Shown: in pieces, positions 529-49,671 of the stretch | How the letters are laid out: each line of letters starts with the position of its first letter | Numbering within the stretch: position 1 is the first letter of the stretch | DNA from: Escherichia phage FritzSarasin | Reading direction: 5' to 3' (one strand) | Sequence record: MZ501069 | DNA: 51,777 nt | Program-made: the position numbers and the translations under genes | The notes under the pieces: generated by a model | What the model was told of the DNA's origin: nothing | Databases searched by the model: none | Seen by the model: only the letters and a program-made list of their open reading frames with translations

Positions 529-2096
529 TGATCATATGGGAAGATTTGACGGCGGCGCAAAAGCGAGCCATTAAAGAAATCAGTGAGCATTCATTCGAAA
601 AGATGATCAGAATCTGGTTCCAATTATTGCAGGGGCAAAAATTCCAGAGCAACTGGCATTTTAGCTTATTGTGCAGTGAGGTAGAGAAGATCATCAATGG
701 AGAGTCGCAGAATGTGATTTTCAACATTACGCCAGGTAGCGGCAAGACTGAGATTTTCTCGATCCACATGTCACCCTACGCGTCATTGAAAAGCCGGAAA
801 GTGAGAAACCTTAACCTTTCGTTTAGTGATGGCCTTGTCCAGCAAAACAGCAACCGGATAAAGGAGATTATCGGTTCTCCTGAGTGGCAAGAGCTATGGC
901 CTGGAAAACTGGCAAAGGCGAGCGCTAAAGATCTGATAGTCACCGAAGGCGGCAAGGTTAAATTGCAGGTTAACTCACGTTCTATTGGCGGCCAGGTAAC
1001 AGGTTTGCGTGGCGGCTATATGGATGATGGTTTTACTGGTATGCTGGTTCTTGACGATCCAGACAAGCCGGATGATATGCTTTCTAAGGTCAAGCGCGAG
1101 GCTATTCACATGCGGTTAAAAAACACAGTGCGATCGCGTCGAATGAAAGACACCACGCCAATTGTTATGGTGCAACAGCGACTACACGTTAATGATTCCA
1201 CCTGGTTCATGCTTAATGGCGGGATGGGTGGTATTGAGTTTAAAGTCGTGAGCATTCCGGCGCTGGTTACGAAAGAATACCGCGAAACGCTTCCTGATTG
1301 GTTGAAGCCTGAATTTGATCGTGATGTGCTGTCAAGTAAGCCAGTGATGATAGATGGCGTCGCTCATTATTCATTTTGGCCTGCGAAGGAAAGCGCGGAT
1401 GAGTTGCTTGCATTGCGCAATGCAGATCCTTACACGTTCGCCAGCCAATACCAACAGCAACCAATCGCGCTTGGCGGGAACGTGTTTAAAACAGAGTGGT
1501 TCCAGTATTACGGCAGCGGCGAAAAGTGCGCACTACCAAAACCGGATCGCTTTGAATACACATTTATTACTGGAGATACCGCGCAGAAGGCCGGAGAGCT
1601 TAACGACTATTCGGTTTTTTGTTATTGGGGGATGTATAAGAATCGCGTTTACTTCATTGATGGCATTCGCGGAAAGTGGGAAGCGCCGGATCTTGAATTA
1701 AATTTTATTGCCTTCGTTAACCAGTGCTGGAAGCGCAATAAGGAGTGTGGCAGCTTGCGACGTATCCACATTGAGGATAAGGCCAGCGGCACGGGTTTGA
1801 TTCAGGGGGCCAAAAAGAAGATCCCGATTGATATAAATCCCGTTCAGCGAAGCAATGACAAGGTAACGCGAGCAATGGACGCCGCGCCAGTGATGAGGGC
1901 CGGACGTGTGGCACTGCCAGAAAATCACCCCATGCTGCCTGAGATACTGGCAGAGGTTGCAGCATTCACTTTTGATGATTCTCATCCCCATGATGATATT
2001 GTCGATAATATAGTTGATGCTGTTAACGTCGAAATGAATTTGGCAGATGATCCGGTAGCAAGAATGAAAAAGCTGGCAGGTCTACGCAATAAATAG
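528..2096 (+). CDS. terminase large subunit
   Basis: 522 aa; Walker A-like GSGKT near N-terminus; size and position ahead of portal typical of TerL. Confidence 0.85.
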   Translation: MIIWEDLTAAQKRAIKEISEHSFEKMIRIWFQLLQGQKFQSNWHFSLLCSEVEKIINGESQNVIFNITPGSGKTEIFSIHMSPYASLKSRKVRNLNLSFSDGLVQQNSNRIKEIIGSPEWQELWPGKLAKASAKDLIVTEGGKVKLQVNSRSIGGQVTGLRGGYMDDGFTGMLVLDDPDKPDDMLSKVKREAIHMRLKNTVRSRRMKDTTPIVMVQQRLHVNDSTWFMLNGGMGGIEFKVVSIPALVTKEYRETLPDWLKPEFDRDVLSSKPVMIDGVAHYSFWPAKESADELLALRNADPYTFASQYQQQPIALGGNVFKTEWFQYYGSGEKCALPKPDRFEYTFITGDTAQKAGELNDYSVFCYWGMYKNRVYFIDGIRGKWEAPDLELNFIAFVNQCWKRNKECGSLRRIHIEDKASGTGLIQGAKKKIPIDINPVQRSNDKVTRAMDAAPVMRAGRVALPENHPMLPEILAEVAAFTFDDSHPHDDIVDNIVDAVNVEMNLADDPVARMKKLAGLRNK

Positions 2097-2112
2097 CACT
2101 AATTGCTAAAAA
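2092..2112 (+). promoter_or_regulatory. conserved promoter-module motif, variant copy (rightward)
   Basis: AATAGCACTAATTGCTAAAAA; followed by TATATAAT and a hairpin; portal ATG 75 nt downstream. Confidence 0.5.
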
Positions 2113-6717: not shown

Positions 6718-6736
6718 GTTTAACAAAAAGTGCTAT
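6718..6736 (-). promoter_or_regulatory. conserved motif copy, reverse orientation, upstream of capsid gene
   Basis: GTTTAACAAAAAGTGCTAT; pairs with partial AATAGCATAAAAAAAC at 6695-6710 as an inverted repeat. Confidence 0.45.
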
Positions 6737-7794: not shown

Positions 7795-7812
7795 ATTTAT
7801 GGAGTGCATAAA

Positions 7813-8079: not shown

Positions 8080-8125
8080 TAATTGGGGCGCTTATGCGCC
8101 CTTTGTCACATCTGGAGAAAACAAA

Positions 8126-8545: not shown

Positions 8546-8913
8546 ACTACAATGAGATTGCAAGAATGGCTACGGCTGGGATTAACTTTTTCAGCGACGC
8601 TAACGGTATGTTTAAGTGCATCACGCAGCAGGGTGGAGTTGAGATTATCGGCGGAGAGGAAGTTACCAAGCCGGAGATTTCAGTGATGATAAAGGGGCTT
8701 GTTAGATCCCCTAGAACTAGAGAGGTTGACGGTGAAACAATCCGAGTAACCGACAAGTTGGGGATATTCACCAATGAAACTGAGATCAAAAATGGTTATC
8801 AGATTGAAATTGATGGCGAACGTTATGTTGTCGTTGAAGCAAGACCAGTCAGGCAGACTAACATCACGGCGGCTTATCGTCCGATATTAAGGAGGATTGC
8901 TGTGCATGGCTGA
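8533..8913 (+). CDS. putative head-tail adaptor protein
   Basis: 126 aa, overlaps previous gene; positional call. Confidence 0.4.
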
Positions 8914-9349: not shown

Positions 9350-9740
9350 TTTAATGTTGGCGGCAAGAAAGGCGCTGGCGGCTGAATATGAATCACGATT
9401 TAAGATAGCATATGAAAACGTTGATTTTGTGCCGCCTGGAGATGGTTCTATGTGGTTAAAATTTGACTACATGGAAGCAGACACGGATCGCATATCTCTT
9501 GATAGAAAATGTGTTTCTTATATCGGTTTGGTTCAGGTTGGAATTGTCATTCCTCCTGGCGGCGGCACTGATAAAGCGCGTTTGCTGGCTAAAGAGATTG
9601 CGAGATTTTTCTATGATGGTAGAATGATTGAAACTGGCTATATTAGCGAGGGGGCAAACGTCCACACATTACTAAAAAGTGAAACAGGTTGGTTATTGCC
9701 GATCCGTTTCAGTGTTAGGCTTGATACAAAGGAGGAATAA
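9339..9740 (+). CDS. putative tail terminator protein
   Basis: 133 aa immediately upstream of the major tail gene; positional call. Confidence 0.4.
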   Translation: MHYDLMLAARKALAAEYESRFKIAYENVDFVPPGDGSMWLKFDYMEADTDRISLDRKCVSYIGLVQVGIVIPPGGGTDKARLLAKEIARFFYDGRMIETGYISEGANVHTLLKSETGWLLPIRFSVRLDTKEE

Positions 9741-9742
9741 TC

Positions 9743-10405
9743 ATGCACTTGCCTAATGGTTCTCAAATTTTCATCGGCGTTAATATGGGTGAGCCTATTA
9801 GCGCTACTCAAATCAGCAATGCTGATGATCCTGTTTTTACGACTGCAAACACTCAAAGCATCAAAAAAGGCGCTTATGTTCTTATTGAAACATCTTCTTG
9901 GGGTAAACTTGTTAGTCGCGTGCTTCGAGTTAAGGAAGTTTCAGATAATGCAAGTGTTACTCTTGAAGGTGTTAGCACTAAAGATACAAACGTATTTCCA
10001 GAAGGAGAGAACACAGCAACTTTCCGAGAGGTGAAATCTTGGGTAGAGATTCCTTGCGTACAGGATCTTGCGCAGGACGGCGGCGAACAACAGTATTACA
10101 CTTATCAGTGTTTGGCTGATGACCAGGAGCAGCAGTTACCGACCTATAAGAGCGCCGTTTCTCTTACCTACACTTTCGCGCATGAATATGATAACCCGAT
10201 TTATCCGATCTTGCGCGAGGCTGAGGAATCCGGCGACGTAACCGCTTTGCGTATGTACGTTCCGAAAGCTAAAGAGATGCGTTGCTGGGCTGGCGTATTG
10301 TCATTTAATGACATTCCGCAAACCACTATGAACGAAATGGAAACTGTTTCCCTTTCCGTATCTCTGAAAGGTCGATTTACGTTCTTATCTTCCGACATCA
10401 ATTAA
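9743..10405 (+). CDS. putative major tail protein
   Basis: 220 aa; strong RBS AAGGAGG; immediately before the G/G-T chaperone pair and tape measure, as in lambda-like tails. Confidence 0.55.
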   Translation: MHLPNGSQIFIGVNMGEPISATQISNADDPVFTTANTQSIKKGAYVLIETSSWGKLVSRVLRVKEVSDNASVTLEGVSTKDTNVFPEGENTATFREVKSWVEIPCVQDLAQDGGEQQYYTYQCLADDQEQQLPTYKSAVSLTYTFAHEYDNPIYPILREAEESGDVTALRMYVPKAKEMRCWAGVLSFNDIPQTTMNEMETVSLSVSLKGRFTFLSSDIN

Positions 10406-10471: not shown

Positions 10472-10490
10472 TTTTAACAAAAAGTGCTAT
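10472..10490 (-). promoter_or_regulatory. conserved motif copy, reverse orientation, abutting RBS of chaperone gene
   Basis: TTTTAACAAAAAGTGCTAT directly followed by AAGGAG and ATG 10505. Confidence 0.45.
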
Positions 10491-21100: not shown

Positions 21101-21120
21101 GTTTAGCAAAAAGTGCTACT
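21101..21120 (-). promoter_or_regulatory. conserved promoter-module motif, variant copy (leftward)
   Basis: Minus-strand reading AGTAGCACTTTTTGCTAAAC, about 21 nt, then TATAGT; lipoprotein ATG about 70 nt downstream. Confidence 0.5.
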
Positions 21121-21488
21121 TGTTATTTTTTGTTTTTCGGTGTTATCGAATTTAAGACGGCGTAAATTTAGCTCAAATTTTAGCCAACATGAGAGCGATA
21201 AACAATCAATAAAATAGATATATACATATAAAATCAATAGTTTATTTATTTATGTATGTATATTTGTTTTTTCTTGTTATCTGTGTTTCTTGTGGTTTTG
21301 GTTGTTTGTGGTGATTTTTCTTTCTGAGTATCTGTATGTGCCATCATTCATGTGTATGTATATAATCCGGCGTATCTGAGAGAACAAGGGAACAAGAAAA
21401 ATAACACATATTAATCATTGACTTACATTTCAAATTTGTTTTCTTGCAATCTAAGAACGTTTAGAAAACAGAAAAAACAAAACAACTA

Positions 21489-26737: not shown

Positions 26738-26755
26738 AATAGCACTTTTTGCTAA
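26738..26755 (+). promoter_or_regulatory. conserved motif copy abutting RBS of tail-fibre gene (reverse relative to gene)
   Basis: AATAGCACTTTTTGCTAA on the plus strand; on the minus strand it sits directly 5' of AGGAGG and the tail-fibre ATG. Confidence 0.45.
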
Positions 26756-26785
26756 TGACAATGCAGATAATAGCATTTTCAAATG

Positions 26786-27811: not shown

Positions 27812-28288
27812 TTAGCTATTCGTGCTGTTATCACCTTTGTAGAATCGTCCGCCTGGTTCGTAGTCTGAATTTTTGACTACGCGCAACATTTCGTATTTGT
27901 CGCAACGGGTAGTAAGAGGCTTGCCGTTAGAATCAAACCGCAGATCTGGACGACAAAACGAGGCGCGGTATCCTTTGCATCCATTATATTTGTAGTCGTT
28001 ATGCACCTTTTGTGCTCCAGCGGCTGAAATCATACCACGCTTTCGCCATTGGTTAACAACTTGCTGAGATACGCGCAGACGTCGAGCCATAGCAGGAACG
28101 CCGCCGTAATACTCGATCAGAATGTCAAGGCGAGATTTCAGGCTTGCTTTTACCTCATCTCGCAGGATAAGAAATCCGGTTCGGTGTTTTCGTGGCTTTT
28201 TGTCTTTACCTCGTCGCGTTCCGTTGTTACCGTTAATAGTGCGCTTGTCGATCTCACCCGTAGATACTGCAATTCGTGCATCTTTCAT
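27812..28288 (-). CDS. putative HTH DNA-binding protein
   Basis: 158 aa; basic N-terminus and HTH-like segment RRLRVSQQVVNQWRKRGMIS; RBS GAGGTGA. Confidence 0.45.
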   Translation of the reverse strand: MKDARIAVSTGEIDKRTINGNNGTRRGKDKKPRKHRTGFLILRDEVKASLKSRLDILIEYYGGVPAMARRLRVSQQVVNQWRKRGMISAAGAQKVHNDYKYNGCKGYRASFCRPDLRFDSNGKPLTTRCDKYEMLRVVKNSDYEPGGRFYKGDNSTNS

Positions 28289-28299
28289 CTAGTCACCTC

Positions 28300-28319
28300 A
28301 TAGCATTTTTTGTTAAAAC
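28300..28319 (+). promoter_or_regulatory. conserved promoter-module motif copy (rightward)
   Basis: ATAGCATTTTTTGTTAAAAC, 22-nt spacer, TATTAT; helicase ATG 77 nt downstream. Confidence 0.55.
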
Positions 28320-28375
28320 AGTTTATTGTAATGAGTCTATTATATACTCCAAATGGCATTTTTTAAAGGTTTAAG

Positions 28376-30373: not shown

Positions 30374-30792
30374 TGGCTATAACTGATAAAGGCGATTATC
30401 TTGAGTTTTACGAAAGGGATCCAACCGACACGAGAAGGGAAGTTAATCACCAGATAGATAGTTTTCAGTGGTTGACTTATGCTCATCCTTATTTGCTGGC
30501 GTGGCATACGGTAAACGAGAATGAGAAGTCTAAAGTAACGGCGATGATTGATCAGCAGTCCGGCTTGGTTAAGGGAGTAAGCGATTTCATCATCCTGATT
30601 GGTTTAAACGGAAAATACCCCTTTGCAGCGATTGAGATCAAACGAGTGAATAAATCAGGCAAGGGGAAAGCATCACCAGTCAGCGATGAACAAAAGGCTT
30701 TTTTGCGTCGCGTTCGCAGCTTAGGAGGATTCGCTGCGGTAGCCTACGGATTCAATCAGTTTAAGTTGGCTATTGAATACATGCTTAAATAG
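30373..30792 (+). CDS. VRR-NUC domain nuclease
   Basis: 139 aa; core GVSDFIILIGLNGKYPFAAIEIKR fits the D...E.K pattern; start overlaps helicase stop. Confidence 0.55.
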   Translation: MAITDKGDYLEFYERDPTDTRREVNHQIDSFQWLTYAHPYLLAWHTVNENEKSKVTAMIDQQSGLVKGVSDFIILIGLNGKYPFAAIEIKRVNKSGKGKASPVSDEQKAFLRRVRSLGGFAAVAYGFNQFKLAIEYMLK

Positions 30793-30808
30793 CACTTTTT
30801 GTTAAAAC
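30788..30808 (+). promoter_or_regulatory. conserved promoter-module motif copy (rightward)
   Basis: AATAGCACTTTTTGTTAAAAC, inverted repeat GGCGCGATGGATTGCGCC, CATAAT; contains stop TAG of the upstream gene; Dam ATG 85 nt downstream. Confidence 0.6.
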
Positions 30809-31602: not shown

Positions 31603-31860
31603 ATGGAAAAAGAGAGAAGCGTTTATTTAAATGAAACTGGCGAGTGGTTGTTATTTCGCGCTATGGTGTGCGATGCACTTGATAAAAACCCTAACGTGAA
31701 AAAGATGATTGATTGCGATCCGTGGGAATTTTCAAGCGCATTAGATATGAGCTTTGAGGAGACAAGAAAACTCCCGCTTGAAAAATGGCACGAACAAATC
31801 AGAAATGACATGCAAGAGTTTGTCGATTCGTGGAATTTTCAGCACGGAATGATCCACTAA
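31603..31860 (+). CDS. hypothetical protein
   Basis: 85 aa with GGAG RBS; stop TAA embedded in the next motif copy. Confidence 0.55.
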   Translation: MEKERSVYLNETGEWLLFRAMVCDALDKNPNVKKMIDCDPWEFSSALDMSFEETRKLPLEKWHEQIRNDMQEFVDSWNFQHGMIH

Positions 31861-31879
31861 TAGCACTTTTTGTTAAAAC
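31859..31879 (+). promoter_or_regulatory. conserved promoter-module motif copy (rightward)
   Basis: AATAGCACTTTTTGTTAAAAC, hairpin GCCCGGCCTAGTGTCGGGC, CATAAT; ATG 77 nt downstream. Confidence 0.6.
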
Positions 31880-31935
31880 GCCCGGCCTAGTGTCGGGCAT
31901 AATTATTTCAACGAAGCAAACATGAGGAAATAAAA

Positions 31936-32115
31936 ATGGTGGTATTCGATAAACGCGCTTTTAATCTTGCTCAAGAAGTAGCAAAAGGTTCAGTGGATGG
32001 CGGTTCAAAGGAAGGATTCCAGTTTGATTGGGAGATCGCAATGTTTTTACTGAAAGTTGCATACGGTCACGCACCAATTGAACAAGCGGAGGCATATTAT
32101 AAGCATGAAGGTTGA
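31936..32115 (+). CDS. hypothetical small protein (not in ORF track)
   Basis: 59-aa ORF with GAGGA RBS at the expected distance from the motif copy. Confidence 0.4.
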   Translation: MVVFDKRAFNLAQEVAKGSVDGGSKEGFQFDWEIAMFLLKVAYGHAPIEQAEAYYKHEG

Positions 32116-32347
32116 GCAAGGAAGAGATGCGGTATGGAATCACGCTAAAGAATGCGGTATTGCCGACGATATAAAGAAGATCGCGCAATACTTTGATATT
32201 GCAGATGTGAGCATAATTAGCGGCGACAAGATGACTTTCCTCAAGGAAAGGCCGCGAAAAATGGTAAGAGTTCCAGCAGTTCCAACAAAAATTGATTTCA
32301 AAGAGGCAATGGCTAAAATCCGAGAGCCTCGCAAATATTATAAATGA
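32105..32347 (+). CDS. hypothetical protein
   Basis: 80 aa from ATG 32105 (MKVEQGRD...); overlaps previous small ORF. Confidence 0.4.
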   Translation: MKVEQGRDAVWNHAKECGIADDIKKIAQYFDIADVSIISGDKMTFLKERPRKMVRVPAVPTKIDFKEAMAKIREPRKYYK

Positions 32348-32441
32348 GGATAGTTATCATGTGGCGCTTGTTTGTTCTACCGTTACCCGTTATCATCGCT
32401 GTTACAGTTATGTACCATATAGTGATGAGATAGGTAGCAGA

Positions 32442-33557
32442 ATGAAAAATGTAAAAATTACAGATGAGCAATTCAAGATCGAACGGGCGGCAGGTAAGAC
32501 ATATAAACAGATCGCTCAAGAGTACGGGATGAATGTGAGAAGCGTCGAGCGTCGCGCGGCGCGTCTTGCAAAGCAAGGACAGTTATCGACCATCGGAGCG
32601 CCTGGTTTTGGTGTTCATGGTGAGTCAGTAATGACTGACAAAGAAGGAAATATAATCCTCAAGTGGACCAAAACCAGCAAGGATAAAGAGCAATTAGAGG
32701 CACTGATGCGCGCAGCTATGGAGGCGTTTAGCGAGGAAGTGCCGCGATTAGATCCAGTTCCATTTCAGGAGCGTAATTATAATGAAACGCTTTCATTGTA
32801 TCCGATCTTTGACATGCACTTAGGAGCTATGGCCCATAAGCACGAATGCGGCGAAAATTGGGATACTGCGACGGCAGAGCGCGTTATGAATAACTTTATC
32901 GACTATGCTTTGATGTGCGCGCCGGACAGCGAAAAGGCTGTTATCCTGATTGGTGGCGATATGCTTCATAGCGATGGCCTGGAGGCTGTGACACCTGCAA
33001 GCGGTCACGTACTTGATCAAGATAGCCGATATGCAAAATTGGTTTACGTTGCAATCCGTGCAATGCGTCGCGCAATTAATAAAATGCTGTTAAAGCATAA
33101 ACATGTTGAGGTCCAGATCGTAGAGGGGAATCACGACCAATCAGGAATGATTTGGCTACGCGCAGCAATGGCGGCAGCATATGAGAACGAGCCGCGCGTT
33201 TACGTTGATGTTTCTCCTCGCGTTGTTCACCACACGCAATACGGAAAAACTTTCCTTGCGTACCATCACGGGCACACAGTGCGTAAACCGGAGGCTTTGC
33301 TAATGATGTGCGCGTCAGATTGGCGGGAGGACTTCGGAAACTCAAAAACGATGTATGCGCACGTAGGGCACTGGCATCACCAGACCGTGACAGAAACGTC
33401 GCTTGGCATCGTGGAGGTGCATAGCACCCTGGCGGCAAAAGACGCATACGCCGCGCGAGGTGGCTGGAGATCTCGACGCCGTGCGGCGGTTATCATTTAC
33501 GACAAAGAGCATGGAGAAGTCGGGCGATTTGTTCACTATCCAGAAATGATGAATTGA
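32442..33557 (+). CDS. calcineurin-like metallophosphoesterase with N-terminal HTH-like region
   Basis: 371 aa from ATG 32442; motifs DMHLG, GGDMLHSD, GNHD, HHGH, GHWHH match the metallophosphoesterase series (SbcD/Mre11-like); N-terminal KQIAQEYGMNVRSVERRAARL resembles an HTH. Confidence 0.6.
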   Translation: MKNVKITDEQFKIERAAGKTYKQIAQEYGMNVRSVERRAARLAKQGQLSTIGAPGFGVHGESVMTDKEGNIILKWTKTSKDKEQLEALMRAAMEAFSEEVPRLDPVPFQERNYNETLSLYPIFDMHLGAMAHKHECGENWDTATAERVMNNFIDYALMCAPDSEKAVILIGGDMLHSDGLEAVTPASGHVLDQDSRYAKLVYVAIRAMRRAINKMLLKHKHVEVQIVEGNHDQSGMIWLRAAMAAAYENEPRVYVDVSPRVVHHTQYGKTFLAYHHGHTVRKPEALLMMCASDWREDFGNSKTMYAHVGHWHHQTVTETSLGIVEVHSTLAAKDAYAARGGWRSRRRAAVIIYDKEHGEVGRFVHYPEMMN

Positions 33558-33604
33558 TGAATTTTTATTTAACTCAATGACAAATTAAATCAAAAACTTG
33601 CAAA

Positions 33605-33632
33605 GGGGCGGCGTTTGTCGCCTCTTTTTTTT
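33605..33632 (+). terminator. rho-independent terminator
   Basis: GGCGGCG-TTTGT-CGCCTC followed by TTTTTTTTG. Confidence 0.55.
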
Positions 33633-33704
33633 GTTTAAATTTTTATCATGTGCGTTTATTATGCGGTTAATATATTGACTTTTAATTAATATGGAGCATT
33701 AAAA

Positions 33705-33920
33705 ATGAAAGATTTTATTAACGCAGCTACCGCCGGATCTGGCGGTTCATCTATCGCAAGCGCCGCTACAGGTCAGTTAACCATTGCTATTGCCAGCTTT
33801 GTTTTAATGGCTGCATTCGGTGCGTGGGGCGCTTACCTTCGCTGGCGTGATAGTAAAAAATTCCACGAGGCGATCGAAAAAGGTGATATTCAAAAAGCTA
33901 TTGAAATCAGGGGCAAGTAA
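33705..33920 (+). CDS. putative holin
   Basis: 71 aa; one hydrophobic transmembrane stretch and charged C-terminus; directly precedes endolysin with overlapping TAATG. Confidence 0.6.
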
Positions 33921-34411
33921 TGAGCATCAAGAACAGGGTGGCGGCGGCGGCCTTTGGCGTTGCGGTTGCCTTGACTTCTCCACTTCTTGAAGAGATCGAA
34001 GGGGTAAGATACAAGCCATACAAAGATATTGCGGGAGTATGGACGGTTTGCGCAGGAATCACCGGACCCGATGTTATCCTGGGGAAAACGTACACTAAAA
34101 AAGAGTGTGATGATTTGTTGGCTAAGCATATCCAGGTTGCTAAAAAGGAAGTTGACAAGCAAGTTAAGGTTGACATTCCTGATAGTATGCGTGCAGCAAT
34201 GTACTCATTCACTTACAATGCAGGTGTGGGAGCTTTCAGAAATTCAACAATGCTGAAACTCATCAACCAGGGGAAATTAAAAGATGCTTGCGATCAGCTT
34301 TATCGTTGGACGTATTACCATAACCCCAAAACAGGAAAGCGCGAGAAGTCTAAAGGCTTACTTAACAGGCGCAAGGTCGAATACAAATATTGCACAATGG
34401 ATCTGAAATGA
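33920..34411 (+). CDS. endolysin (lysozyme-like, probable signal-anchor-release type)
   Basis: 163 aa; hydrophobic N-terminal segment [17 protein letters not shown] followed by a lysozyme-like catalytic region; lysis-cassette position. Confidence 0.8.
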
Positions 34412-34803
34412 TGAAGAAATTTTTACTTACACCAATCGCAATGGCGGTGATCTTGTCTGGATGTTCAAGCGTTACGCCACTGACCGGATTAATCGGCAGT
34501 AAGCCGGAAATCACAGCACAGGCTGGCGCGGAGAACGTGAGGCAGACAGTTGGCATTACAGCAAAGCAGGACGCCAGCACAAAACAGGAAACCACAATAA
34601 AGGAATCTGCGGTTGACAAGGTGGACACGTCCAGCAAGAAGGATTTCACAACATCAACCATTCAGGCCAATACCATCAAGGCAGACAAAATTCAGATCGT
34701 GCAGGGTAATAACGGCAGATGGTACGATCCAATAATCATATGCGTGGTTGTGTTAATTGTGCTGATTTGTCTTTACTGGAGAGAAAAGAAAAAGGAGGCT
34801 TAA
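34408..34803 (+). CDS. unimolecular spanin
   Basis: ATG 34408 overlaps endolysin stop; N-terminal lipoprotein signal with lipobox ILSGC and C-terminal transmembrane helix [16 protein letters not shown]. Confidence 0.75.
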
Positions 34804-34819
34804 TGCCTCCTTTATTTTT
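34794..34819. terminator. bidirectional terminator
   Basis: AAAAA-GGAGGCTTAATGCCTCC-TTTATTTTT between convergent spanin and leftward gene. Confidence 0.6.
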
Positions 34820-35042
34820 ATGCGTCGGGCCACATATGAGTTTCGTTTGTTGGCTTGTTCGATTCGTCATACTGCCTTACTTCAATGCTGCAAGTGTCGC
34901 CATACATTTCTGCAATCTTGCGCTCATTTTCAACAGCCGATTGCTCACTCCATCCAAAATCCCTGTCATAAATTGTCGGGATTTCAGCAGAAGATCCGTT
35001 GTCATGATTATATACGCGAACTACTAAAAACTTGCTGGACAT
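34818..35042 (-). CDS. hypothetical protein
   Basis: 74 aa; driven by the leftward motif module at 35103-35123. Confidence 0.55.
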   Translation of the reverse strand: MSSKFLVVRVYNHDNGSSAEIPTIYDRDFGWSEQSAVENERKIAEMYGDTCSIEVRQYDESNKPTNETHMWPDA

Positions 35043-35102
35043 AATTTTACCTTTTGGTTGTTTCGTTTCGATGAAACAAATATACCCGACACTAGGCCGG
35101 GC

Positions 35103-35123
35103 GTTTTAACAAAAAATGCTATT
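35103..35123 (-). promoter_or_regulatory. conserved promoter-module motif copy (leftward)
   Basis: Minus-strand reading AATAGCATTTTTTGTTAAAAC + GCCCGGCCTAGTGTCGGG + TATAT; nearly identical to the inverted copy at 31859. Confidence 0.6.
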
Positions 35124-35239
35124 CCATACGCTTTACCGTAACCAGTAATACACCATCATCATTGCATAAAACATGTTCAGTGGTGCTAAAAGCGCGCATA
35201 TCTGAATAAAGTATCGTAAGTAAAGCATGAATAAAATCC

Positions 35240-35635
35240 TCATGTGATATTGAATTTACGGCGCAGTGCTTCAAGATCTTGTCTATTAGCTTTTGCCTGG
35301 AACAATTCATCATCGCCCATCTCCCCTATTCTAGCCATATCCCTGATCCAGTCGTTGCGCATACCATCCAGGCTATACAATTCGAATCCGAAAGGCCGCT
35401 TTGACGATCCTTTGGACCAGTATTTACCGCAGACCCCATCTATATAGCCAGCCGTCATCATTCTTGCGCAAAATTCCTTAGATGCAAGGCTGGCGAACAT
35501 TCGCGGCGTAAGTCCGGCGGCCCGTGCGAGCCGCTCACATTCTCTATGATGATAGATAAATTTGGCTATGTGCTGCCTGTTAAACCAGTCGTATGACTCA
35601 CACCATTTATACAGATCAAGCAAAAACATAATCAT
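35240..35635 (-). CDS. hypothetical protein, coupled to upstream P-loop ATPase
   Basis: About 131 aa; start overlaps stop of the ATPase gene (ATGA); no recognisable motif. Confidence 0.5.
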   Translation of the reverse strand: MIMFLLDLYKWCESYDWFNRQHIAKFIYHHRECERLARAAGLTPRMFASLASKEFCARMMTAGYIDGVCGKYWSKGSSKRPFGFELYSLDGMRNDWIRDMARIGEMGDDELFQAKANRQDLEALRRKFNIT

Positions 35636-37264: not shown

Positions 37265-37285
37265 GTTTTGTCAAAAAGTGCTATT
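37265..37285 (-). promoter_or_regulatory. conserved promoter-module motif, variant with TTGACA (leftward)
   Basis: Minus-strand reading AATAGCACTTTTTGACAAAAC, 22 nt, TAAAAT inside hairpin GGGCCG...CGGCCC; ATPase ATG 74 nt downstream. Confidence 0.55.
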
Positions 37286-37938: not shown

Positions 37939-37959
37939 CTTTTAACAAAAAGTGCTATT
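37939..37959 (-). promoter_or_regulatory. conserved promoter-module motif copy (leftward)
   Basis: Minus-strand reading AATAGCACTTTTTGTTAAAAG + hairpin CCAGGTGTAAAAACCTGG + CATAAT. Confidence 0.6.
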
Positions 37960-40137: not shown

Positions 40138-40158
40138 CTTTTAACAAAAAGTGCTTTT
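40138..40158 (-). promoter_or_regulatory. conserved promoter-module motif, variant copy (leftward)
   Basis: Minus-strand reading AAAAGCACTTTTTGTTAAAAG + hairpin GCGGTAAGTTGGTATATTTACCGC (TATATT in loop). Confidence 0.55.
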
Positions 40159-40863: not shown

Positions 40864-40885
40864 GTTTTTAACAAAAAGTGCTATT
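40864..40885 (-). promoter_or_regulatory. conserved promoter-module motif copy (leftward)
   Basis: Minus-strand reading AATAGCACTTTTTGTTAAAAAC + hairpin GATGCGCT...AGCGCATC with TATAGT. Confidence 0.6.
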
Positions 40886-42167: not shown

Positions 42168-42188
42168 GTTTTAACAAAAAGTGCTATT
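42168..42188 (-). promoter_or_regulatory. conserved promoter-module motif copy (leftward)
   Basis: Minus-strand reading AATAGCACTTTTTGTTAAAAC, about 22 nt, TACATT; ATG about 80 nt downstream. Confidence 0.55.
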
Positions 42189-42742
42189 TGACGGTTAGCG
42201 CCAGGATTGTGATCGAAATAATCAAAAGTAATCATTCGTAATCAAATCAAGTCAAAATGATGATTGCCTTTGCAAATTTGATGAGAAAAGTAATCACGTT
42301 TAATCATTGGTTGCAGGGGAGATAGTGAAACCTTCCCCTCTTGCCTCACTTTTTTGCCTGGCTGTCAGTGGTTGTTGTCTTTTGTTCACCCCTGTTACCG
42401 ATTTCAGGCGGCGTGTTTCCGCGCGGTTTTCCGGTGTAGCGAAAACGGAAAAAACAAAGAAAATCCTTTATAATACATTGAAAATAAAGATTATTTATTT
42501 ATATATATCTATAATGTTTTCTTTTTGTTCTCACTGTTACAGTGCTTTTTGTTGGTTATGGTGTGGTTGTGTGTGGGCATATATGGATAGTTGCGCGCGC
42601 GGCGGATTGCATATGTATATATACTTTTTCCGGCGGATTGCGTTAACAGCGTGAACAGAAAAATAACAGCCGTGAAATCAATAACTTGCGCATGATTTTG
42701 TAGTTTTTTGATATTGGTAACGTTTTGAATACAACAAAAACA

Positions 42743-43266: not shown

Positions 43267-43526
43267 TGAAAAAGGCATTAATCGGCGTTTTGGCGGCAAT
43301 GACACTCCTGACCGGATGCGAAAAGGCATCAGAATCAACGGTTGTCGTAGGCGTGGAGTCAGATTTCAAAGTCGGTCGCCTGTTCACTGTTGACGGATGC
43401 ACAGCATACAGATTCTATGATAACGGTCGCGCGATCTATTACACCAATTGCAAAGGCGCAACGGATAGCACGTACAACAGCGGAAAGAACGTAATGCACC
43501 AGCAAGTCACAACAGATATTAAATAG
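43266..43526 (+). CDS. putative lipoprotein
   Basis: 86 aa; signal peptide with lipobox LLTGC; stop TAG embedded in the next motif copy. Confidence 0.6.
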   Translation: MKKALIGVLAAMTLLTGCEKASESTVVVGVESDFKVGRLFTVDGCTAYRFYDNGRAIYYTNCKGATDSTYNSGKNVMHQQVTTDIK

Positions 43527-43542
43527 CACTTTTTGTTAAAAC
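43522..43542 (+). promoter_or_regulatory. conserved promoter-module motif copy (rightward)
   Basis: AATAGCACTTTTTGTTAAAAC + hairpin GCCAGGCGCAAAGCCTGGC + CATAAT; ATG 77 nt downstream. Confidence 0.6.
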
Positions 43543-43985: not shown

Positions 43986-44005
43986 ATAGCACTTTTTGTT
44001 AAAAC
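43985..44005 (+). promoter_or_regulatory. conserved promoter-module motif copy (rightward)
   Basis: AATAGCACTTTTTGTTAAAAC then CCAGGCATAAT. Confidence 0.55.
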
Positions 44006-45054: not shown

Positions 45055-45207
45055 ATGGCTACCTGGATTTTGCTGATTCTTATGATTGATGGCGGCGTTG
45101 ACCATATCGAAATGAATAGCCAGCAATCTTGCATTGAGGCACGAGAACAGATCAAGAACGACAACAGGTTTTATGCGTACACTCACACGCTATGTATTAA
45201 GAAATAG
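45055..45207 (+). CDS. putative small membrane peptide (not in ORF track)
   Basis: 50-aa ORF with RBS GAGGTGAGAG; hydrophobic N-terminus; stop TAG embedded in the next motif. Confidence 0.35.
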   Translation: MATWILLILMIDGGVDHIEMNSQQSCIEAREQIKNDNRFYAYTHTLCIKK

Positions 45208-45223
45208 CACTTTTTGTTAAAAC
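45203..45223 (+). promoter_or_regulatory. conserved promoter-module motif copy (rightward)
   Basis: AATAGCACTTTTTGTTAAAAC + GGGGCCAGG TATAAT GGCC; ATG 74 nt downstream. Confidence 0.6.
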
Positions 45224-46269: not shown

Positions 46270-46475
46270 TCCTGAATGTAGCATATGCTAACCCTCGCGG
46301 CTGCAATATATACGGCTTTAAGGTTGGCGCGATGGTCAACGCCAGGATAAACGAAAAAGGCGTATTAGTTGTCAAGTCCCCTAAAACTGGCATGGATATG
46401 CGCATCAAGGAGAACGGCGGAAGATTGTTTATCAGGTCAATATCTGGTCAAACGCTCGCAACGTTCACAAAATAG
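46266..46475 (+). CDS. hypothetical small protein
   Basis: 69 aa; stop TAG embedded in the next motif copy. Confidence 0.5.
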   Translation: MILNVAYANPRGCNIYGFKVGAMVNARINEKGVLVVKSPKTGMDMRIKENGGRLFIRSISGQTLATFTK

Positions 46476-46491
46476 CACTTTTTGCAAAAAC
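46471..46491 (+). promoter_or_regulatory. conserved promoter-module motif copy (rightward)
   Basis: AATAGCACTTTTTGCAAAAAC + hairpin GGGCTTGCGGTATAGTAAGCCC. Confidence 0.6.
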
Positions 46492-46546
46492 AGATTATCG
46501 GGCTTGCGGTATAGTAAGCCCATCGACAACGAAAGAGGAAGCGGCG

Positions 46547-46846
46547 ATGTTAGTACGCAATGCGATTTATAAATTCACAAACGAGATGGGGGTTCACCTT
46601 TACCACGTAAACCATCAAGGCAACACCTCAATCGCGATGTATCGCGACGCTCGCGGGAAGTGTAGGCCTTCTCTGCGTGGCAGAATTTCTCCTGCGTTCT
46701 TCATGTTTAGATGGTATGCAACAGAACAAAGCAACCATAACCATTGGAATAAAGTATTGATTGCAGGAGGCCGAATTGTTGCCAGTCACGTAGTCGATCC
46801 TTGCAAACTAACCAGTCGCCAGCTTCGCAAAATGGCGCGCAAATAG
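46547..46846 (+). CDS. hypothetical protein
   Basis: 99 aa; flanked by near-identical modules at 46471 and 46842. Confidence 0.5.
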   Translation: MLVRNAIYKFTNEMGVHLYHVNHQGNTSIAMYRDARGKCRPSLRGRISPAFFMFRWYATEQSNHNHWNKVLIAGGRIVASHVVDPCKLTSRQLRKMARK

Positions 46847-46861
46847 CACTTTTTGTTAAAA
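46842..46861 (+). promoter_or_regulatory. conserved promoter-module motif copy (rightward)
   Basis: AATAGCACTTTTTGTTAAAA + hairpin CGGCTTGCGGTATAGTAAGCCC. Confidence 0.6.
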
Positions 46862-46917
46862 TCAACTTTACGGCTTGCGGTATAGTAAGCCCATCAACAA
46901 CAAACGAGGATTAAATC

Positions 46918-47770: not shown

Positions 47771-48361
47771 ATGAAACGAGACATTATCATCCTTAATGGG
47801 CCTCCAGGTTGCGGGAAGGACACTATTGCAGCTTACCTAACGGGCCATCGTTACCCAGCGGTTAAGGCATCGTTCAAGCAACCTATGTTCGACATTGCTT
47901 TTTCTATGCTTGGCCCGACTCGATACGATGAATTTATGGATCTGTACAACGACCGAGAGCAAAAAGAAAAGCCTCAAGTTATCTTAGGCGGCAAGTCACC
48001 TCGACAATTCATGATCTGGATTAGCGAGGATGTAATGAAGCCAGTTTTTGGGGATCACTATTTCGGGCGTCGAATGGTTGAAGAGATTCACGAGATGTAC
48101 CGAGATTTGGCGGTTGTGATCAGTGATGGCGGATTCCCCGAAGAAATCAAGCCGCTTGTTAAGGAAGGGCATGAAGTGCATATTTGCCGATTGCATCGCG
48201 ACGGCTTCACGTTTGCTGGCGATTCGAGAGACTACATTGACCTGAGCGGTTATCACTATCGAATCCATCACTATGACTTCCAATTGCAGGACGGCAAGCC
48301 GGAAATGGCTGTAAACGAGATCGTCAATACGGTCAAATGGAAGCACACACAGATTAAATAG
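47771..48361 (+). CDS. P-loop kinase, dNMP-kinase-like
   Basis: 196 aa; N-terminal P-loop ILNGPPGCGKDT; later VISDGG and HICRLHR blocks resemble phage dNMP kinases (from memory). Confidence 0.55.
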   Translation: MKRDIIILNGPPGCGKDTIAAYLTGHRYPAVKASFKQPMFDIAFSMLGPTRYDEFMDLYNDREQKEKPQVILGGKSPRQFMIWISEDVMKPVFGDHYFGRRMVEEIHEMYRDLAVVISDGGFPEEIKPLVKEGHEVHICRLHRDGFTFAGDSRDYIDLSGYHYRIHHYDFQLQDGKPEMAVNEIVNTVKWKHTQIK

Positions 48362-48376
48362 CACGAATTGCTAAAC
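48357..48376 (+). promoter_or_regulatory. conserved promoter-module motif, variant copy (rightward)
   Basis: AATAGCACGAATTGCTAAAC + hairpin GCGGGGTTATCTGCCCCGC + TATAAT; ATG 75 nt downstream. Confidence 0.55.
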
Positions 48377-49361: not shown

Positions 49362-49652
49362 ATGGCAAACAAAACTTACCGCAAACTACTGGTTAACGCT
49401 TTTGAAAATATCGCGCAGTGTAACAAGTGGAACGACTCTAAACACTCGCCAATCACAATGAAGCGCGCCGGATTCAAAAATGCTCGTTCATGGGCGCGAG
49501 CTTTCGCAGCTTGCTATATGCCGGATGGTGGACTAGGAGCGATGAACGAGTTTTTGATCAACATGATAGAGGAAGCTGCGCGAGAGGATCGACCGCTGAC
49601 ACAGCGAGATTTTGATGATTTCGCGCGCGATGAGCTTTACTATCTGAGCTAA
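49362..49652 (+). CDS. hypothetical protein
   Basis: 96 aa; stop TAA embedded in the next motif copy. Confidence 0.5.
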   Translation: MANKTYRKLLVNAFENIAQCNKWNDSKHSPITMKRAGFKNARSWARAFAACYMPDGGLGAMNEFLINMIEEAAREDRPLTQRDFDDFARDELYYLS

Positions 49653-49671
49653 TAGCACTTTTTGTTAAAAC
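49651..49671 (+). promoter_or_regulatory. conserved promoter-module motif copy (rightward)
   Basis: AATAGCACTTTTTGTTAAAAC + hairpin GGGCATTTGGTAAAGTGCCC; ATG 77 nt downstream. Confidence 0.6.

What the first reader, a model, noticed from the sequence alone, without database searches (positions are those of the whole stretch)
31859..35125. Near-identical 42-bp promoter modules in inverted orientation flank a 3.2-kb block
The module at 31859-31900 (AATAGCACTTTTTGTTAAAACGCCCGGCCTAGTGTCGGGCAT) recurs almost base-for-base as its reverse complement at 35083-35125. Both promoters point into the intervening block, which holds the metallophosphoesterase and the holin, endolysin and spanin genes. The pair could be a substrate for inversion or module exchange, or a recent duplication.
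Basis: seen in the sequence. Interest (0 to 1): 0.5.

Follow-up and report, generated by a model that had tools for sequence, protein, structure and literature searches.

The report
Paired promoter–hairpin cassettes in T1-like phage
The two inverted sequences are real, but they are two of about twenty copies of a regulatory repeat already described in T1-like phages; they probably act as combined promoter and hairpin cassettes and as gene-swapping joints, and no relative shows the block between them inverted.

Summary
The inverted repeat is real and longer than reported: 31859-31920 versus 35062-35123, 62 nt at 89%. The window is a Warwickvirus (Drexlerviridae), 99% identical to phage tiwna. 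The pair is not a private feature. It is two of 20 copies of the published 21-nt "DR" repeat of T1-like phages (aaATAGCACnnnTTGnTAAAA, PMC11447400), whose function is unsettled. Across 124 unique copies the box sits exactly 19 nt upstream of a sigma70 -10-like hexamer, followed by a CA start, a conserved leader, SD and ATG. This fits a promoter that lacks a -35 element. What the two copies share beyond the family is a 7-bp sense-strand spacer hairpin, kept at both junctions across genera through compensatory changes. Gene order is the same out to T1. 94 GenBank genomes are collinear, and all 43 junctions from relatives and metagenomes are parental, none chimeric. So there is no inversion and no recent duplication. 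Their near-identity here is best explained by short-patch sequence exchange. "Module exchange" is supported for the family: a cassette swap starts at the right module, and a 371-nt indel lies between two direct modules. The closest working analogue is the PeSL promoter-terminator cassette of T4-like phages. Overall this is an ordinary member of a known family, with modest new detail.

The parts
31603..31860 (+). Upstream 85-aa gene (PHROG 2676, unknown function). Its TAA stop (31858-31860) overlaps the start of the left DR box.
31858..31878 (+). Left DR box (21-nt repeat taATAGCACTTTTTGTTAAAA), inferred to span -52 to -32
31880..31898 (+). Left spacer hairpin GCCCGGC-CTAGT-GTCGGGC (7 bp including one G.U), followed by AUAAUUAUUU
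31898..31903 (+). Left -10-like hexamer CATAAT. Predicted start is A31910 (CA at 31909-31910), with leader 31910-31935.
   Evidence: inferred, no RNA data
31936..32115 (+). 59-aa gene (PHROG 2180, unknown function), first gene after the left module
32105..32347 (+). 80-aa gene (PHROG 2817, unknown function)
32361..33557 (+). SbcD-like DNA repair exonuclease / phosphoesterase (PHROG 704)
33602..33627 (+). Strong intrinsic-terminator-like hairpin plus T-run, between the exonuclease and the holin
33705..33920 (+). Holin
33920..34411 (+). Endolysin
34408..34803 (+). Spanin (start taken by homology to the tiwna annotation)
34791..34813 (.). Bidirectional terminator hairpin where the two convergent units meet. 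It is also the 3' boundary of the swappable cassette.
34818..35042 (-). 74-aa gene (PHROG 27210, unknown function), the only gene driven by the right module. It is replaced by an unrelated gene in phiE31-2 and CF1.
35079..35084 (-). Right -10-like hexamer TATATT. Predicted start is A35072, with leader 35072-35043.
   Evidence: inferred
35084..35102 (-). Right spacer hairpin GCCCGGC-CTAGT-GTCGGGT, followed by AUAUUUGUUU
35104..35124 (-). Right DR box (gaATAGCATTTTTTGTTAAAA)
35119..35313 (-). Upstream 64-aa ORF whose stop overlaps the right box. It is annotated in phiE31-2 and EC147 but not in tiwna.
30789..30807 (+). Family member upstream of the Dam gene, with a spacer hairpin
28300..28318 (+). 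Family member upstream of the helicase gene. It lies in the leader of the divergent Cro-like regulator gene.
27812..28288 (-). 158-aa Cro-like HTH protein (PHROG 2856), the candidate DR-box-binding regulator (hypothesis)
37266..37284 (-). Family member (hairpin encloses the -10)
37940..37958 (-). Family member (spacer hairpin)
40139..40157 (-). Family member (hairpin encloses the -10)
40866..40884 (-). Family member (hairpin encloses the -10)
42169..42187 (-). Family member at an operon start (no hairpin)
43523..43541 (+). Family member (spacer hairpin), next most similar to L/R
43986..44004 (+). Family member (no hairpin)
45204..45222 (+). Family member (hairpin encloses the -10)
46472..46490 (+). 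Family member, in direct repeat with 46843. The 371-nt unit between them is absent from phage tonijn.
46843..46861 (+). Family member, partner of 46472
49652..49670 (+). Family member (hairpin encloses the -10)
21101..21119 (-). Family member (3 mismatches, TGCTA half-site)
2093..2111 (+). Divergent family member (A-type, TAGCA-N5-TGCTA) after the large terminase gene
6718..6736 (-). Box copy antisense to the structural genes
10472..10490 (-). Box copy antisense to the structural genes
26739..26757 (+). Degenerate box copy with no -10-like hexamer

Best explanation
The two sequences are the 'left' and 'right' members of the dispersed DR repeat family of T1-like phages. Each is an intergenic regulatory cassette of about 80 nt. 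Its parts, in order, are: the stop codon of the upstream gene; the DR box (an imperfect dyad, TAGCA-N5-TGTTA, inferred at -50 to -32 with its centre near -42); a 19-nt spacer; a sigma70 -10-like hexamer with G at -14; a CA start; an A-rich leader (CATCGAAACGAAAC); an SD; and an ATG. No -35 hexamer lies at the canonical distance. The box therefore most likely substitutes for it, either as the binding site of a dimeric phage protein or as an UP-like element. The best candidate protein is the Cro-like 158-aa product of 27812-28288, whose own leader contains a box. In the left and right cassettes the spacer forms a 7-bp hairpin on the sense strand. That hairpin most likely attenuates, terminates or 3'-stabilises transcripts arriving from the upstream operon, while the cassette starts transcription of the next unit. 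The two resulting units converge on the bidirectional terminator at 34791-34813. The pair is unusually alike for two reasons: both junctions carry an old, related hairpin type (CCCGRY...RYCGGG), and in the tiwna-like lineage a short patch of 31 nt or less was homogenised between them by ectopic gene conversion or recombination. The pair is not an inversion switch and not a recent duplication. As a family, these cassettes are joints at which genes are swapped, inserted or lost. Shown here: the repeat, family membership, fixed architecture, hairpin covariation, synteny and mosaic breakpoints. Inferred: promoter activity, the start sites, the role of the hairpin, the binding protein and the conversion event.
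For: Family: 20 box copies against 0.05 expected. The consensus, orientation and distance of about 76 nt to the ATG match the DR repeats published for TLS, T1, Rtp and Rogue1. Promoter architecture, from 124 unique modules: hexamer T/C-A(0.92)-T-A-A-T(0.94) exactly 19 nt after the box, G-14 at 0.85, CA 6-7 nt downstream with A at 0.84, and the ATG most often 75-76 nt from the box start. Hairpin: 95.5% of cells paired, 3 of 7 pairs with changes on both sides, 0 of 500 shuffles reach the covariation score, and slid controls give 17-46% paired. Further swapped stems occur in K50 and an IMG/VR contig. G.U pairs occur, and the sense fold is better than the antisense fold for L (-13.0 vs -10.4) and R (-10.9 vs -5.3), and in 72 of 94 hairpin-bearing modules. 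A hairpin is present in 94 of 110 modules that follow a co-directional ORF, against 10 of 20 operon-start-like modules. The hairpin at the orthologous left junction of TLS is annotated as terminator T62 directly after DR12, and both L and R score as terminator-like in a simple scan. Age: both modules are present at the same junctions in four genera. Homogenisation: the window's right spacer differs from the right spacers of orkinos and Hanrivervirus at 3 sites, and all 3 match its own left copy. Warwickvirus contigs carry mixed left/right combinations. L/R is the most similar pair of the 20 (19/19 spacer, 84% over 43 nt, against a median of 35%). Exchange joints. Regulator candidate: Cro-like HTH with a box between its near-canonical promoter and its start codon, and -10 hexamers that overlap those of the divergent helicase promoter.
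Against: I found no transcript 5' or 3' end data for any Drexlerviridae phage in the searchable library, so promoter and terminator activity rest on sequence alone. The U-tract after the hairpins is mediocre (6-7 U in 10 nt, interrupted). Many family hairpins have no U-tract and enclose the -10, so termination may not be their role. The module counts include orthologous copies from related phages and are not independent, so the p-values are optimistic. The box is asymmetric in most copies and always keeps one orientation relative to the -10, which a symmetric dimer would not need. The 3-site conversion argument rests on few sites, an intermediate right-hand state exists (cgcccgAcctaTt), and stepwise mutation cannot be excluded. 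Two boxes in the structural region point against transcription, which a pure promoter model does not explain.
Confidence: 0.62

Rival explanations
1. The inverted pair is the crossover site of an invertible segment, or a regular substrate for homologous inversion of the 3.2-kb block. Phage populations would then carry both orientations.
For: The arms include 31 nt of perfect identity in inverted orientation. T1-like phages encode their own recombination functions (established knowledge). Sequence exchange between the arms probably did occur.
Against: 94 GenBank genomes cover at least 80% of window:31000-36000 as one collinear piece, which is impossible if the block (64% of that query) were inverted. 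Orientation is the same in orkinos, EC147, phiE31-2, IsaakIselin, K50, CF1 and T1. Of 43 junctions, 0 are chimeric. Chimeric patterns are absent from IMG/VR and from metagenomes. No recombinase or invertase family was found among the block genes or their neighbours. Assemblies report consensus sequence, so rare subpopulations would be missed.
Confidence: 0.04
2. The pair is a recent duplication of one promoter module within this genome.
For: It is the highest similarity of any module pair in the window, with an identical 19-nt spacer.
Against: Both modules occupy the same two junctions in Warwickvirus, Hanrivervirus, Tlsvirus and Tunavirus-like contigs, each keeping its own side-specific -10 and leader (CATAATTATTTCA versus TATATTTGTTTCA). 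The flanking genes are unrelated. Similarity stops at the cassette edges.
Confidence: 0.03
3. The DR box is not a promoter element. It is a 'stoperator' or roadblock operator: a phage repressor bound to oriented sites between genes blocks elongating or initiating polymerase. This is one of the ideas raised in the TLS paper.
For: There are many oriented intergenic copies. One box lies downstream of the near-canonical promoter of the Cro-like gene, a classic autorepression position. Two copies lie antisense in the late region. The box has dyad character.
Against: The exact 19-nt phasing to a -10-like hexamer with G-14 and a CA start, seen in 124 modules, is what a promoter element predicts, not a roadblock. 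These phages have almost no other promoters for their early genes: only 3 canonical ones in TLS. A single protein could both activate at -42 and repress elsewhere, so the two readings can coexist.
Confidence: 0.15
4. The box works without any phage protein, as an UP-like A/T-rich element contacted by the alpha subunit of host RNA polymerase. These would then be host-only early promoters of the extended -10 type.
For: The box has AAA, TTTTT and AAAA tracts resembling UP subsites. G-14 is conserved. The early genes of a phage with no RNA polymerase of its own must be read by host polymerase alone. The TLS paper raises this possibility.
Against: The most strongly conserved part is the non-A/T core ATAGCAC. 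The box lies about 5-7 bp closer to the -10 than a canonical UP element (my own recollection of the UP consensus). The three sub-types (TTT, GAA, AAA) with perfect TAGCA-N5-TGCTA dyads suggest recognition by a specific protein.
Confidence: 0.2
5. The spacer palindrome acts at the DNA level, as an operator for a second dimeric protein or as a cruciform, rather than as an RNA hairpin.
For: It lies inside the promoter spacer, where operators often sit. The left and right stems share CCCGRY...RYCGGG across genera.
Against: Stem sequences are swapped or replaced at orthologous sites while pairing is kept (GCGGGGC/GTCCCGC, GCCCCGC/GTGGGGC, GCCAGGC/GTCTGGC). G.T pairs occur on the sense strand only. 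Other modules carry unrelated stems in the same place or around the -10. Hairpin presence tracks an upstream co-directional gene.
Confidence: 0.1

Closest known systems
21-nt direct repeats (DR1-DR18) of phage TLS, also reported in T1, Rtp and Rogue1 (PMC11447400, Phage 2024)
   Same: The consensus is the same (aaATAGCACnnnTTGnTAAAA). [quoted passage not shown] The same TTT/GAA/AAA sub-types occur. At the orthologous left junction, TLS DR12 is followed directly by a hairpin annotated as terminator T62.
   Different: Nothing essential differs: this is the same family in a sister genus (Warwickvirus). The paper leaves the function open (stoperator, enhancer site or UP element). In the passages I read, it does not report the fixed 19-nt phasing to a -10, the covarying hairpins, the left/right pair or the mosaic breakpoints.
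PeSL (promoter-early stem-loop) cassettes of T4-like phages (PMC2839356, PMC4122927)
   Same: Both are small repeated intergenic cassettes. The upstream gene's stop codon sits at the 5' edge and the SD and ATG at the 3' edge. A stem-loop with G-T pairs lies between the upstream promoter element and the -10, or overlaps the -10. In PeSLs the stem-loop acts on upstream transcripts. Both kinds of cassette mark the points of indels and gene replacements between close relatives.
   Different: PeSLs carry a consensus sigma70 -35 plus an AT-rich upstream region. Here the -35 is missing and a specific 21-nt box lies 5 bp further upstream. PeSLs occur in the hyperplastic regions of large myoviruses and were tested experimentally (lacZ termination and promoter assays, mini-circles). 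Nothing here has been tested. No paper in the searched library links PeSLs to T1-like phages.
Phage middle or activator-dependent promoters lacking a -35 (T4 MotA-box promoters; class II CRP/FNR-type promoters with a site centred at -41.5)
   Same: Both have a sigma70 -10 with no usable -35, and a conserved upstream element at a fixed distance, repeated in front of many phage genes. The inferred box centre near -42 matches the class II position.
   Different: The MotA box is a 9-bp element centred at -30 and needs AsiA (recalled from memory, not tested). No activator has been identified here, and the box sequence resembles neither CRP nor FNR sites.
Stoperators of mycobacteriophage L5 (Brown et al. 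1997, cited in PMC11447400)
   Same: Both are many oriented copies of a short site in intergenic regions, in a fixed orientation relative to transcription.
   Different: L5 sites are 13-bp asymmetric repressor sites of a temperate phage and are not phased to a -10. This phage is of a virulent type, and its boxes are phased to a -10.
Invertible DNA segments flanked by inverted repeats (Mu G segment / P1 C segment, Gin/Cin)
   Same: Short inverted repeats flank a block of a few kb in a phage genome.
   Different: There is no invertase gene, no orientation variants among relatives, and the repeats here are ordinary members of a 20-copy regulatory family.

Membership tests
Drexlerviridae DR repeat family (TLS DR1-18) | Match to the consensus aaATAGCACnnnTTGnTAAAA | tested here: met
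   L matches the 19-nt core with 0 mismatches and R with 1. Consensus taken from PMC11447400.
Drexlerviridae DR repeat family (TLS DR1-18) | About 20 dispersed copies per genome, far above chance | tested here: met
   20 copies at up to 3 mismatches against 0.05 expected.
Drexlerviridae DR repeat family (TLS DR1-18) | Intergenic, oriented with transcription, about 76 nt upstream of a start codon | tested here: met
   L: box start 31860 to ATG 31936 is 76 nt. R: 35122 to 35042 is 80 nt. Both follow a co-directional ORF. The family mode is 75-76 nt.
Drexlerviridae DR repeat family (TLS DR1-18) | Host genome is a T1-like phage | tested here: met
   99% identity to Warwickvirus tiwna, Drexlerviridae.
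PeSL composite promoter-terminator cassettes | Consensus sigma70 promoter with both -35 and -10 | tested here: not met
   The -10 signature is present (A2 0.92, T6 0.94), but there is no -35 at 16-18 bp. TTGTTA lies 22 bp upstream.
PeSL composite promoter-terminator cassettes | Stable stem-loop inside or overlapping the promoter | tested here: met
   L -13.0 and R -10.9 kcal/mol in the spacer. 13 of 20 window modules reach -10 or better. Covariation.
PeSL composite promoter-terminator cassettes | Stem-loop terminates or attenuates upstream transcription | not testable with these tools
   Indirect evidence only: the hairpin correlates with an upstream co-directional ORF, a simple scan flags L and R, and the TLS orthologue is annotated as terminator T62.
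PeSL composite promoter-terminator cassettes | Cassettes coincide with indel or replacement breakpoints between close relatives | tested here: met
   Gene replacement starting at the 3' edge of the R module. Breakpoints at module edges and a 371-nt unit indel in tonijn.
PeSL composite promoter-terminator cassettes | Located in hyperplastic regions of T4-like myoviruses | tested here: not met
   The genome is a T1-like siphovirus.
Site-specific invertible segment (Gin/Cin/Hin type) | Both orientations exist among genomes or populations | tested here: not met
   Read-level data were not available.
Site-specific invertible segment (Gin/Cin/Hin type) | Adjacent serine invertase gene | tested here: not met
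   No recombinase family among the 8 genes in and beside the block, and none in the annotation of relatives.
Intrinsic (rho-independent) terminator | G+C-rich stem-loop immediately followed by a U-run | tested here: inconclusive
   The stems are good, and the tails are AUAAUUAUUU (L) and AUAUUUGUUU (R). They are flagged by the simple scan, but the U-tracts are interrupted.
Class II activator-dependent promoter | Dyad site centred near -41.5 that replaces the -35 | tested here: inconclusive
   The imperfect dyad TAGCA-N5-TGTTA has its centre at -42 relative to the predicted start site. The start site itself is only inferred.
Class II activator-dependent promoter | An identified activator protein that binds the site | not testable with these tools
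   A candidate only: the Cro-like 158-aa protein with a box in its own leader.
Curated RNA families (Rfam 15) | Match to any covariance model | tested here: not met
   No hit at gathering scores in the whole window, and nothing relevant at E<=1 in 31700-35300.

The most novel reading that the evidence does not exclude
The DR cassettes of T1-like phages are a siphovirus counterpart of the T4 PeSLs. They would be mobile promoter-plus-hairpin units that depend on a phage Cro-like protein bound at -42. That would explain how these phages run their early and middle programme with only about three canonical sigma70 promoters. The cassettes would also drive the phages' mosaicism, through recombination and ectopic gene conversion between cassettes. 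The left/right pair here would be a caught example of such conversion between inverted copies.
Probability: 0.35. Interest if true: 0.55.

Novelty: new member of a known kind. Interest (0 to 1): 0.3.

Why it matters
For the finding as stated, it matters little. The inverted pair is not a switch, and the repeat family is already in the literature. The wider picture is more useful. T1-like phages are common laboratory and industrial contaminants and are phage-therapy candidates, yet how they are transcribed is essentially unknown. The TLS reannotation found only three canonical promoters and left the function of the repeats open. This analysis shows that the repeats are phased to a -10 element, carry covarying sense-strand hairpins and mark recombination breakpoints. 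That turns an unexplained repeat into a concrete model with predicted start sites and a named candidate regulator, testable by ordinary reporter, EMSA and transcript-end mapping experiments.

Tried and rejected
1. Canonical sigma70 promoter: TTGTTA lies 22 bp from the -10, too far to serve as a -35.
2. Sigma54 promoter: the box TAGCAC-N3-TTGY resembles TGGCAC-N5-TTGC, but the spacing is 2 nt short and the GG is missing. Rejected by inspection; the sigma54 consensus is from memory.
3. Antisense-strand terminator (hairpin followed by GTTTTAAC): the conserved G.T pair becomes an A.C mismatch on that strand, and the antisense folds are weaker.
4. N4-type hairpin promoter or single-strand promoter: no virion RNA polymerase is annotated in the relatives examined. 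Considered from memory only and dropped.
5. Known RNA family: none.
6. Paralogous genes downstream of the two modules: none.
7. Literature searches for transcription start data on T1 or Drexlerviridae returned nothing relevant. An exact-sequence search for the box found no paper.
8. (126 collinear records) was first taken as evidence against inversion. The block alone is 82% of that query, so the 80% criterion is not diagnostic. I rely instead, where the block is 64% of the query, and on the junction classification.
9. Record MT360681 (2019SD1) shows rearranged modules and a helicase on the other strand, but it is flagged UNVERIFIED_ASMBLY and has homopolymer errors, so I did not count it as an inversion.
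10. Pfam gave no Metallophos hit for the 'phosphoesterase' at E<=0.01. PHROG 704 'DNA repair exonuclease' and the T1 SbcD annotation support its identity.

Full report
**Observation.**
The sequence at 31859-31900 does recur as its reverse complement at 35082-35123, with 2 mismatches in 42 nt. Gapless similarity runs on to 62 nt at 89% (31859-31920 vs 35062-35123). The 22-nt core occurs only at these two places in the window and never in 100 shuffles. Each copy starts at the stop codon of a gene on its own strand (31603-31860 +; 35119-35313 -) and precedes a start codon 76-80 nt further on (31936 +; 35042 -), so both point into the block.

The block holds the following:
- two small ORFs, an SbcD-like exonuclease/phosphoesterase, holin, endolysin and spanin on the + strand;
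- a strong terminator at 33602-33627;
- a bidirectional terminator at 34791-34813;
- one 74-aa gene on the - strand.

**What genome this is.**
The window is a T1-like siphovirus. It is 99% identical over this region to Escherichia phage tiwna (Drexlerviridae, Tempevirinae, Warwickvirus).

**The pair belongs to a family.**
A repeat search over the whole window showed that the left half of the module is not private to these two sites. ATAGCACTTTTTGTTAAAA occurs 20 times at up to 3 mismatches, against 0.05 expected by chance.

Written in their own orientation, the copies share one architecture:
- the 19-nt box;
- a 19-nt variable spacer;
- a hexamer such as CATAAT, TATAGT or TATATT;
- a leader resembling CATCGAAACGAAAC;
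- an SD and an ATG.

Over 124 unique modules from the window and 27 related loci:
- the hexamer reads T/C, A (0.92), T, A, A, T (0.94), which is the signature of a sigma70 -10;
- G is conserved at -14 (0.85);
- a CA dinucleotide with A at 0.84 lies 6-7 nt after the hexamer, the expected start site;
- the ATG is most often 75-76 nt from the box start.

With that start site the box spans -50 to -32. There is no -35 at the canonical distance, because TTGTTA lies 22 bp from the -10. The box is an imperfect dyad, TAGCA-N5-TGTTA, and a perfect TGCTA in several copies. Its centre is near -42.

All of this is read from sequence. I found no transcript-end data for any Drexlerviridae phage.

**The family is already published.**
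The 2024 reannotation of phage TLS (a sister genus, Tlsvirus) describes a 21-nt direct repeat, aaATAGCACnnnTTGnTAAAA (PMC11447400). Its findings:
- it is also present in T1, Rtp and Rogue1;
- only three canonical sigma70 promoters were found in TLS;
- the function was left open, with stoperators, enhancer-binding sites and UP elements suggested.

Its Supplementary Table S1 places a hairpin annotated as terminator T62 directly after DR12, at the junction orthologous to the left module here. It places another terminator (T57) directly after DR10.

**What is special about the two copies.**
Beyond the family features, they share the whole 19-nt spacer and part of the leader. They are the most similar of all 190 module pairs in the window: 19/19 spacer matches and 84% over the 43 nt after the box. 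The next pair reaches 79%, and the median is 35%.

The shared spacer folds into a 7-bp hairpin, GCCCGGC-CTAGT-GTCGGG(C/T). The hairpin is conserved at both junctions across genera, with compensatory changes:

| Junction | Phage or contig | Stem arms |
|---|---|---|
| Left | L010 | GCCAGGC/GTCTGGC |
| Left | Klebsiella phage K50 | GCGGGGC/GTCCCGC |
| Left | L018 | GCCCCGC/GTGGGGC |
| Left | T1 | ACCCGGC/GTCGGGT |
| Right | Hanrivervirus, Tlsvirus, Tunavirus-like contigs | CCCGAT/ATCGGG |

On 16 distinct left and right spacers:
- 95.5% of cells pair;
- 3 of 7 pairs change on both sides;
- 0 of 500 shuffles reach the observed covariation score;
- sliding the partner columns drops pairing to 17-46%.

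A G.T pair is kept on the sense strand, where the opposite strand would have A.C. The sense fold is better than the antisense fold for L (-13.0 vs -10.4 kcal/mol) and R (-10.9 vs -5.3). No Rfam family matches.

**What the hairpins do.**
In the window, 13 of 20 modules have a stable hairpin, either inside the spacer or enclosing the -10. If the hairpins act on RNA arriving from upstream, they should be present where a co-directional gene ends at the module and absent at operon starts.

Across 130 non-identical modules:
- a hairpin of -9 kcal/mol or better is present in 94 of 110 modules that follow a co-directional ORF;
- it is present in 10 of 20 operon-start-like modules (Fisher p about 0.001);
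- the sense strand folds better than the antisense in 72 of 94 hairpin modules.

These modules include orthologues from related phages, so the p-values are optimistic.

This is the architecture of the PeSL cassettes of T4-like phages, as described in PMC2839356 and PMC4122927:
- a promoter plus a stem-loop that lies between the upstream element and the -10, or overlaps the -10;
- G-T pairs in the stems;
- the upstream stop codon at the 5' edge, and the SD and ATG at the 3' edge;
- the stem-loop was shown experimentally to terminate upstream transcription.

By analogy, I infer that the left and right hairpins attenuate, terminate or 3'-stabilise the upstream operons while the cassette starts the next unit. 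The U-tracts (AUAAUUAUUU and AUAUUUGUUU) are only moderate, so this step has medium confidence.

**Who reads the box.**
This is inference. The 158-aa product of 27812-28288 has a Cro-like HTH. The evidence is PHROG 2856 'transcriptional regulator' at 1.6e-72, weak Pfam YdaS/P22_Cro hits below the curated cut-offs, and weak PDB Cro hits.

The gene has a near-canonical promoter on the - strand, TTTAAA-N17-TATAAT. A box lies between that promoter and its start codon. The same box sits at -42 of the divergent helicase promoter, and the two -10 hexamers overlap. A protein that binds the box could therefore shut off its own gene and turn on the box promoters.

Rival readings cannot be excluded without experiments. 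One is a repressor-only 'stoperator'. The other is an UP-like element read by host polymerase alone.

**Inversion.**
I found no evidence for it:
- 94 GenBank records cover at least 80% of window:31000-36000 as one collinear piece. The block is only 64% of that query, so these genomes cannot be inverted.
- The annotations of orkinos, EC147, phiE31-2, IsaakIselin, K50, CF1 and T1 all show helicase-nuclease-Dam-hyp, then hyp-hyp-exonuclease-lysis genes on one strand, then the small gene, HTH gene and helicase on the other.
- A crossover inside the repeat would join the left upstream flank to the right -10 and leader. No such junction exists in IMG/VR or in the metagenome collection.
- All 43 left- or right-type modules in 37 loci are parental: 18 left-left, 25 right-right and 0 chimeric.

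The one odd record, 2019SD1, is flagged as an unverified assembly. Assemblies cannot exclude rare subpopulations.

**Duplication or homogenisation.**
Both modules are old. Each keeps its side-specific -10 and leader (CATAATTATTTCA on the left, TATATTTGTTTCA on the right) in four genera, and the genes around them are unrelated. A recent duplication is therefore excluded.

Within Warwickvirus the spacers are mosaic:

| Genome or contig | Left spacer | Right spacer |
|---|---|---|
| Window, tiwna and several metagenome contigs | CTAGT type | CTAGT type |
| orkinos | ATTTT loop | cTcccgAccTTGT |
| L012, L016 | CTAGT type | cgcccgAcctaTt |
| L024 | ATTTT loop | CTAGT type |

Relative to orkinos and Hanrivervirus, the window's right spacer differs at three sites, and all three match its own left copy. 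Meanwhile the box and the -10 on either side keep their right-specific bases. One short-patch exchange of 31 nt or less explains this better than three parallel substitutions. The sites are few and an intermediate state exists, so I put this at roughly 0.55.

**Module exchange.**
- EC147 and phiE31-2 are in the same genus. They are identical through the right module up to CATCGRAACGAA, then carry unrelated genes (19% identity), and re-converge at the bidirectional terminator.
- The direct-repeat pair 46472/46843 flanks one small ORF. Only 2 of 126 related records are collinear across it.
- Homology breakpoints there fall at query positions 322, 391 and 692/693, which are the module edges.
- Phage tonijn has one module where the window has two plus the ORF. 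That is a 371-nt unit difference with its junction inside the module, and the non-homologous upstream segment ends exactly at the box.

No paper in the searched library links PeSLs to T1-like phages.

**Verdict.**
It is wrong on the more exciting points: no inversion, no recent duplication, and not a unique pair. The element is a new member of a known repeat family. The added value is a concrete, testable model for that family.

Noticed in passing
window 6718-6736 (-) and 10472-10490 (-): Two box copies lie between + strand structural genes but point against them. The second is followed about 45 nt downstream by the bidirectional terminator after 9743-10405, so it could make only a tiny antisense RNA or act as a protein-binding roadblock. 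A pure promoter model does not explain either copy.
   Followed up: no
window 28289-28375: Divergent intergenic region. A - strand promoter (TTTAAA-N17-TATAAT) for the Cro-like 158-aa gene overlaps the -10 of the + strand helicase promoter, and a DR box lies inside the regulator's leader. The layout looks like a small genetic switch.
   Followed up: partly
window 46472-46910; L038 (tonijn NC_049818 40130-41124): Two directly repeated modules, 371 nt apart, flank ORF 46547-46846. Tonijn has a single module and lacks the unit. Only 2 of 126 related records are collinear across this 1.1-kb stretch, and the breakpoints sit at module edges.
   Followed up: yes
window 21231-21320 and 42488-42531: AT-rich clusters of short repeats (TTTATTTATTTATGTATGTATA...) in two non-coding stretches. 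The second lies between the divergent early operons. They may be origin-like or packaging-related, but were not examined.
   Followed up: no
L008 (MT360681 Shigella phage 2019SD1) around 3270-3310 and 7800-9611: This record, flagged UNVERIFIED_ASMBLY, has the box and spacer of the Dam-upstream module inverted relative to its leader, 1-nt homopolymer differences in the boxes, and the right-hand helicase on the opposite strand. It is probably an assembly artefact at repeated modules, but it is the only apparent rearrangement I saw.
   Followed up: partly
GenBank records MG065649, MG065640, MG065679, MG065663 and others: About 20 records named 'Campylobacter phage' (host given as C. jejuni) match this coliphage-type genome at 76-95% identity. 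This suggests mislabelled or contaminant T1-like phages.
   Followed up: no
window 32361-33557 (residues 34-117 of the exonuclease): The N-terminal part of the SbcD-like exonuclease gives weak hits to Sigma70_r4_2 (E 0.0019, below cut-off) and to PHROG 323 'transcriptional regulator, D5-like' (E 2e-4). There was no Pfam Metallophos hit at E<=0.01. It may carry an N-terminal HTH-like domain.
   Followed up: no
window 2093-2111, 21101-21119, 26739-26757, 48358-48376: These box variants have a perfect dyad, TAGCA-N5-TGCTA, with CTAAT or CGAAT centres. They correspond to the 'A' and 'G' sub-types of TLS. Most copies are the 'T' type with TGTTA. The sub-types might mark different temporal classes.
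   Followed up: no
window 35119-35313 (-): A 64-aa ORF whose stop codon overlaps the right box is not annotated in tiwna, but it is annotated in phiE31-2 and, in shorter form, in EC147.
   Followed up: no
all modules, leader positions +1 to about +14: The transcribed leader (C)ATCGAAACGAAAC is conserved across most modules and genera, independently of the downstream gene. It may be a translation or RNA-processing signal.
   Followed up: no
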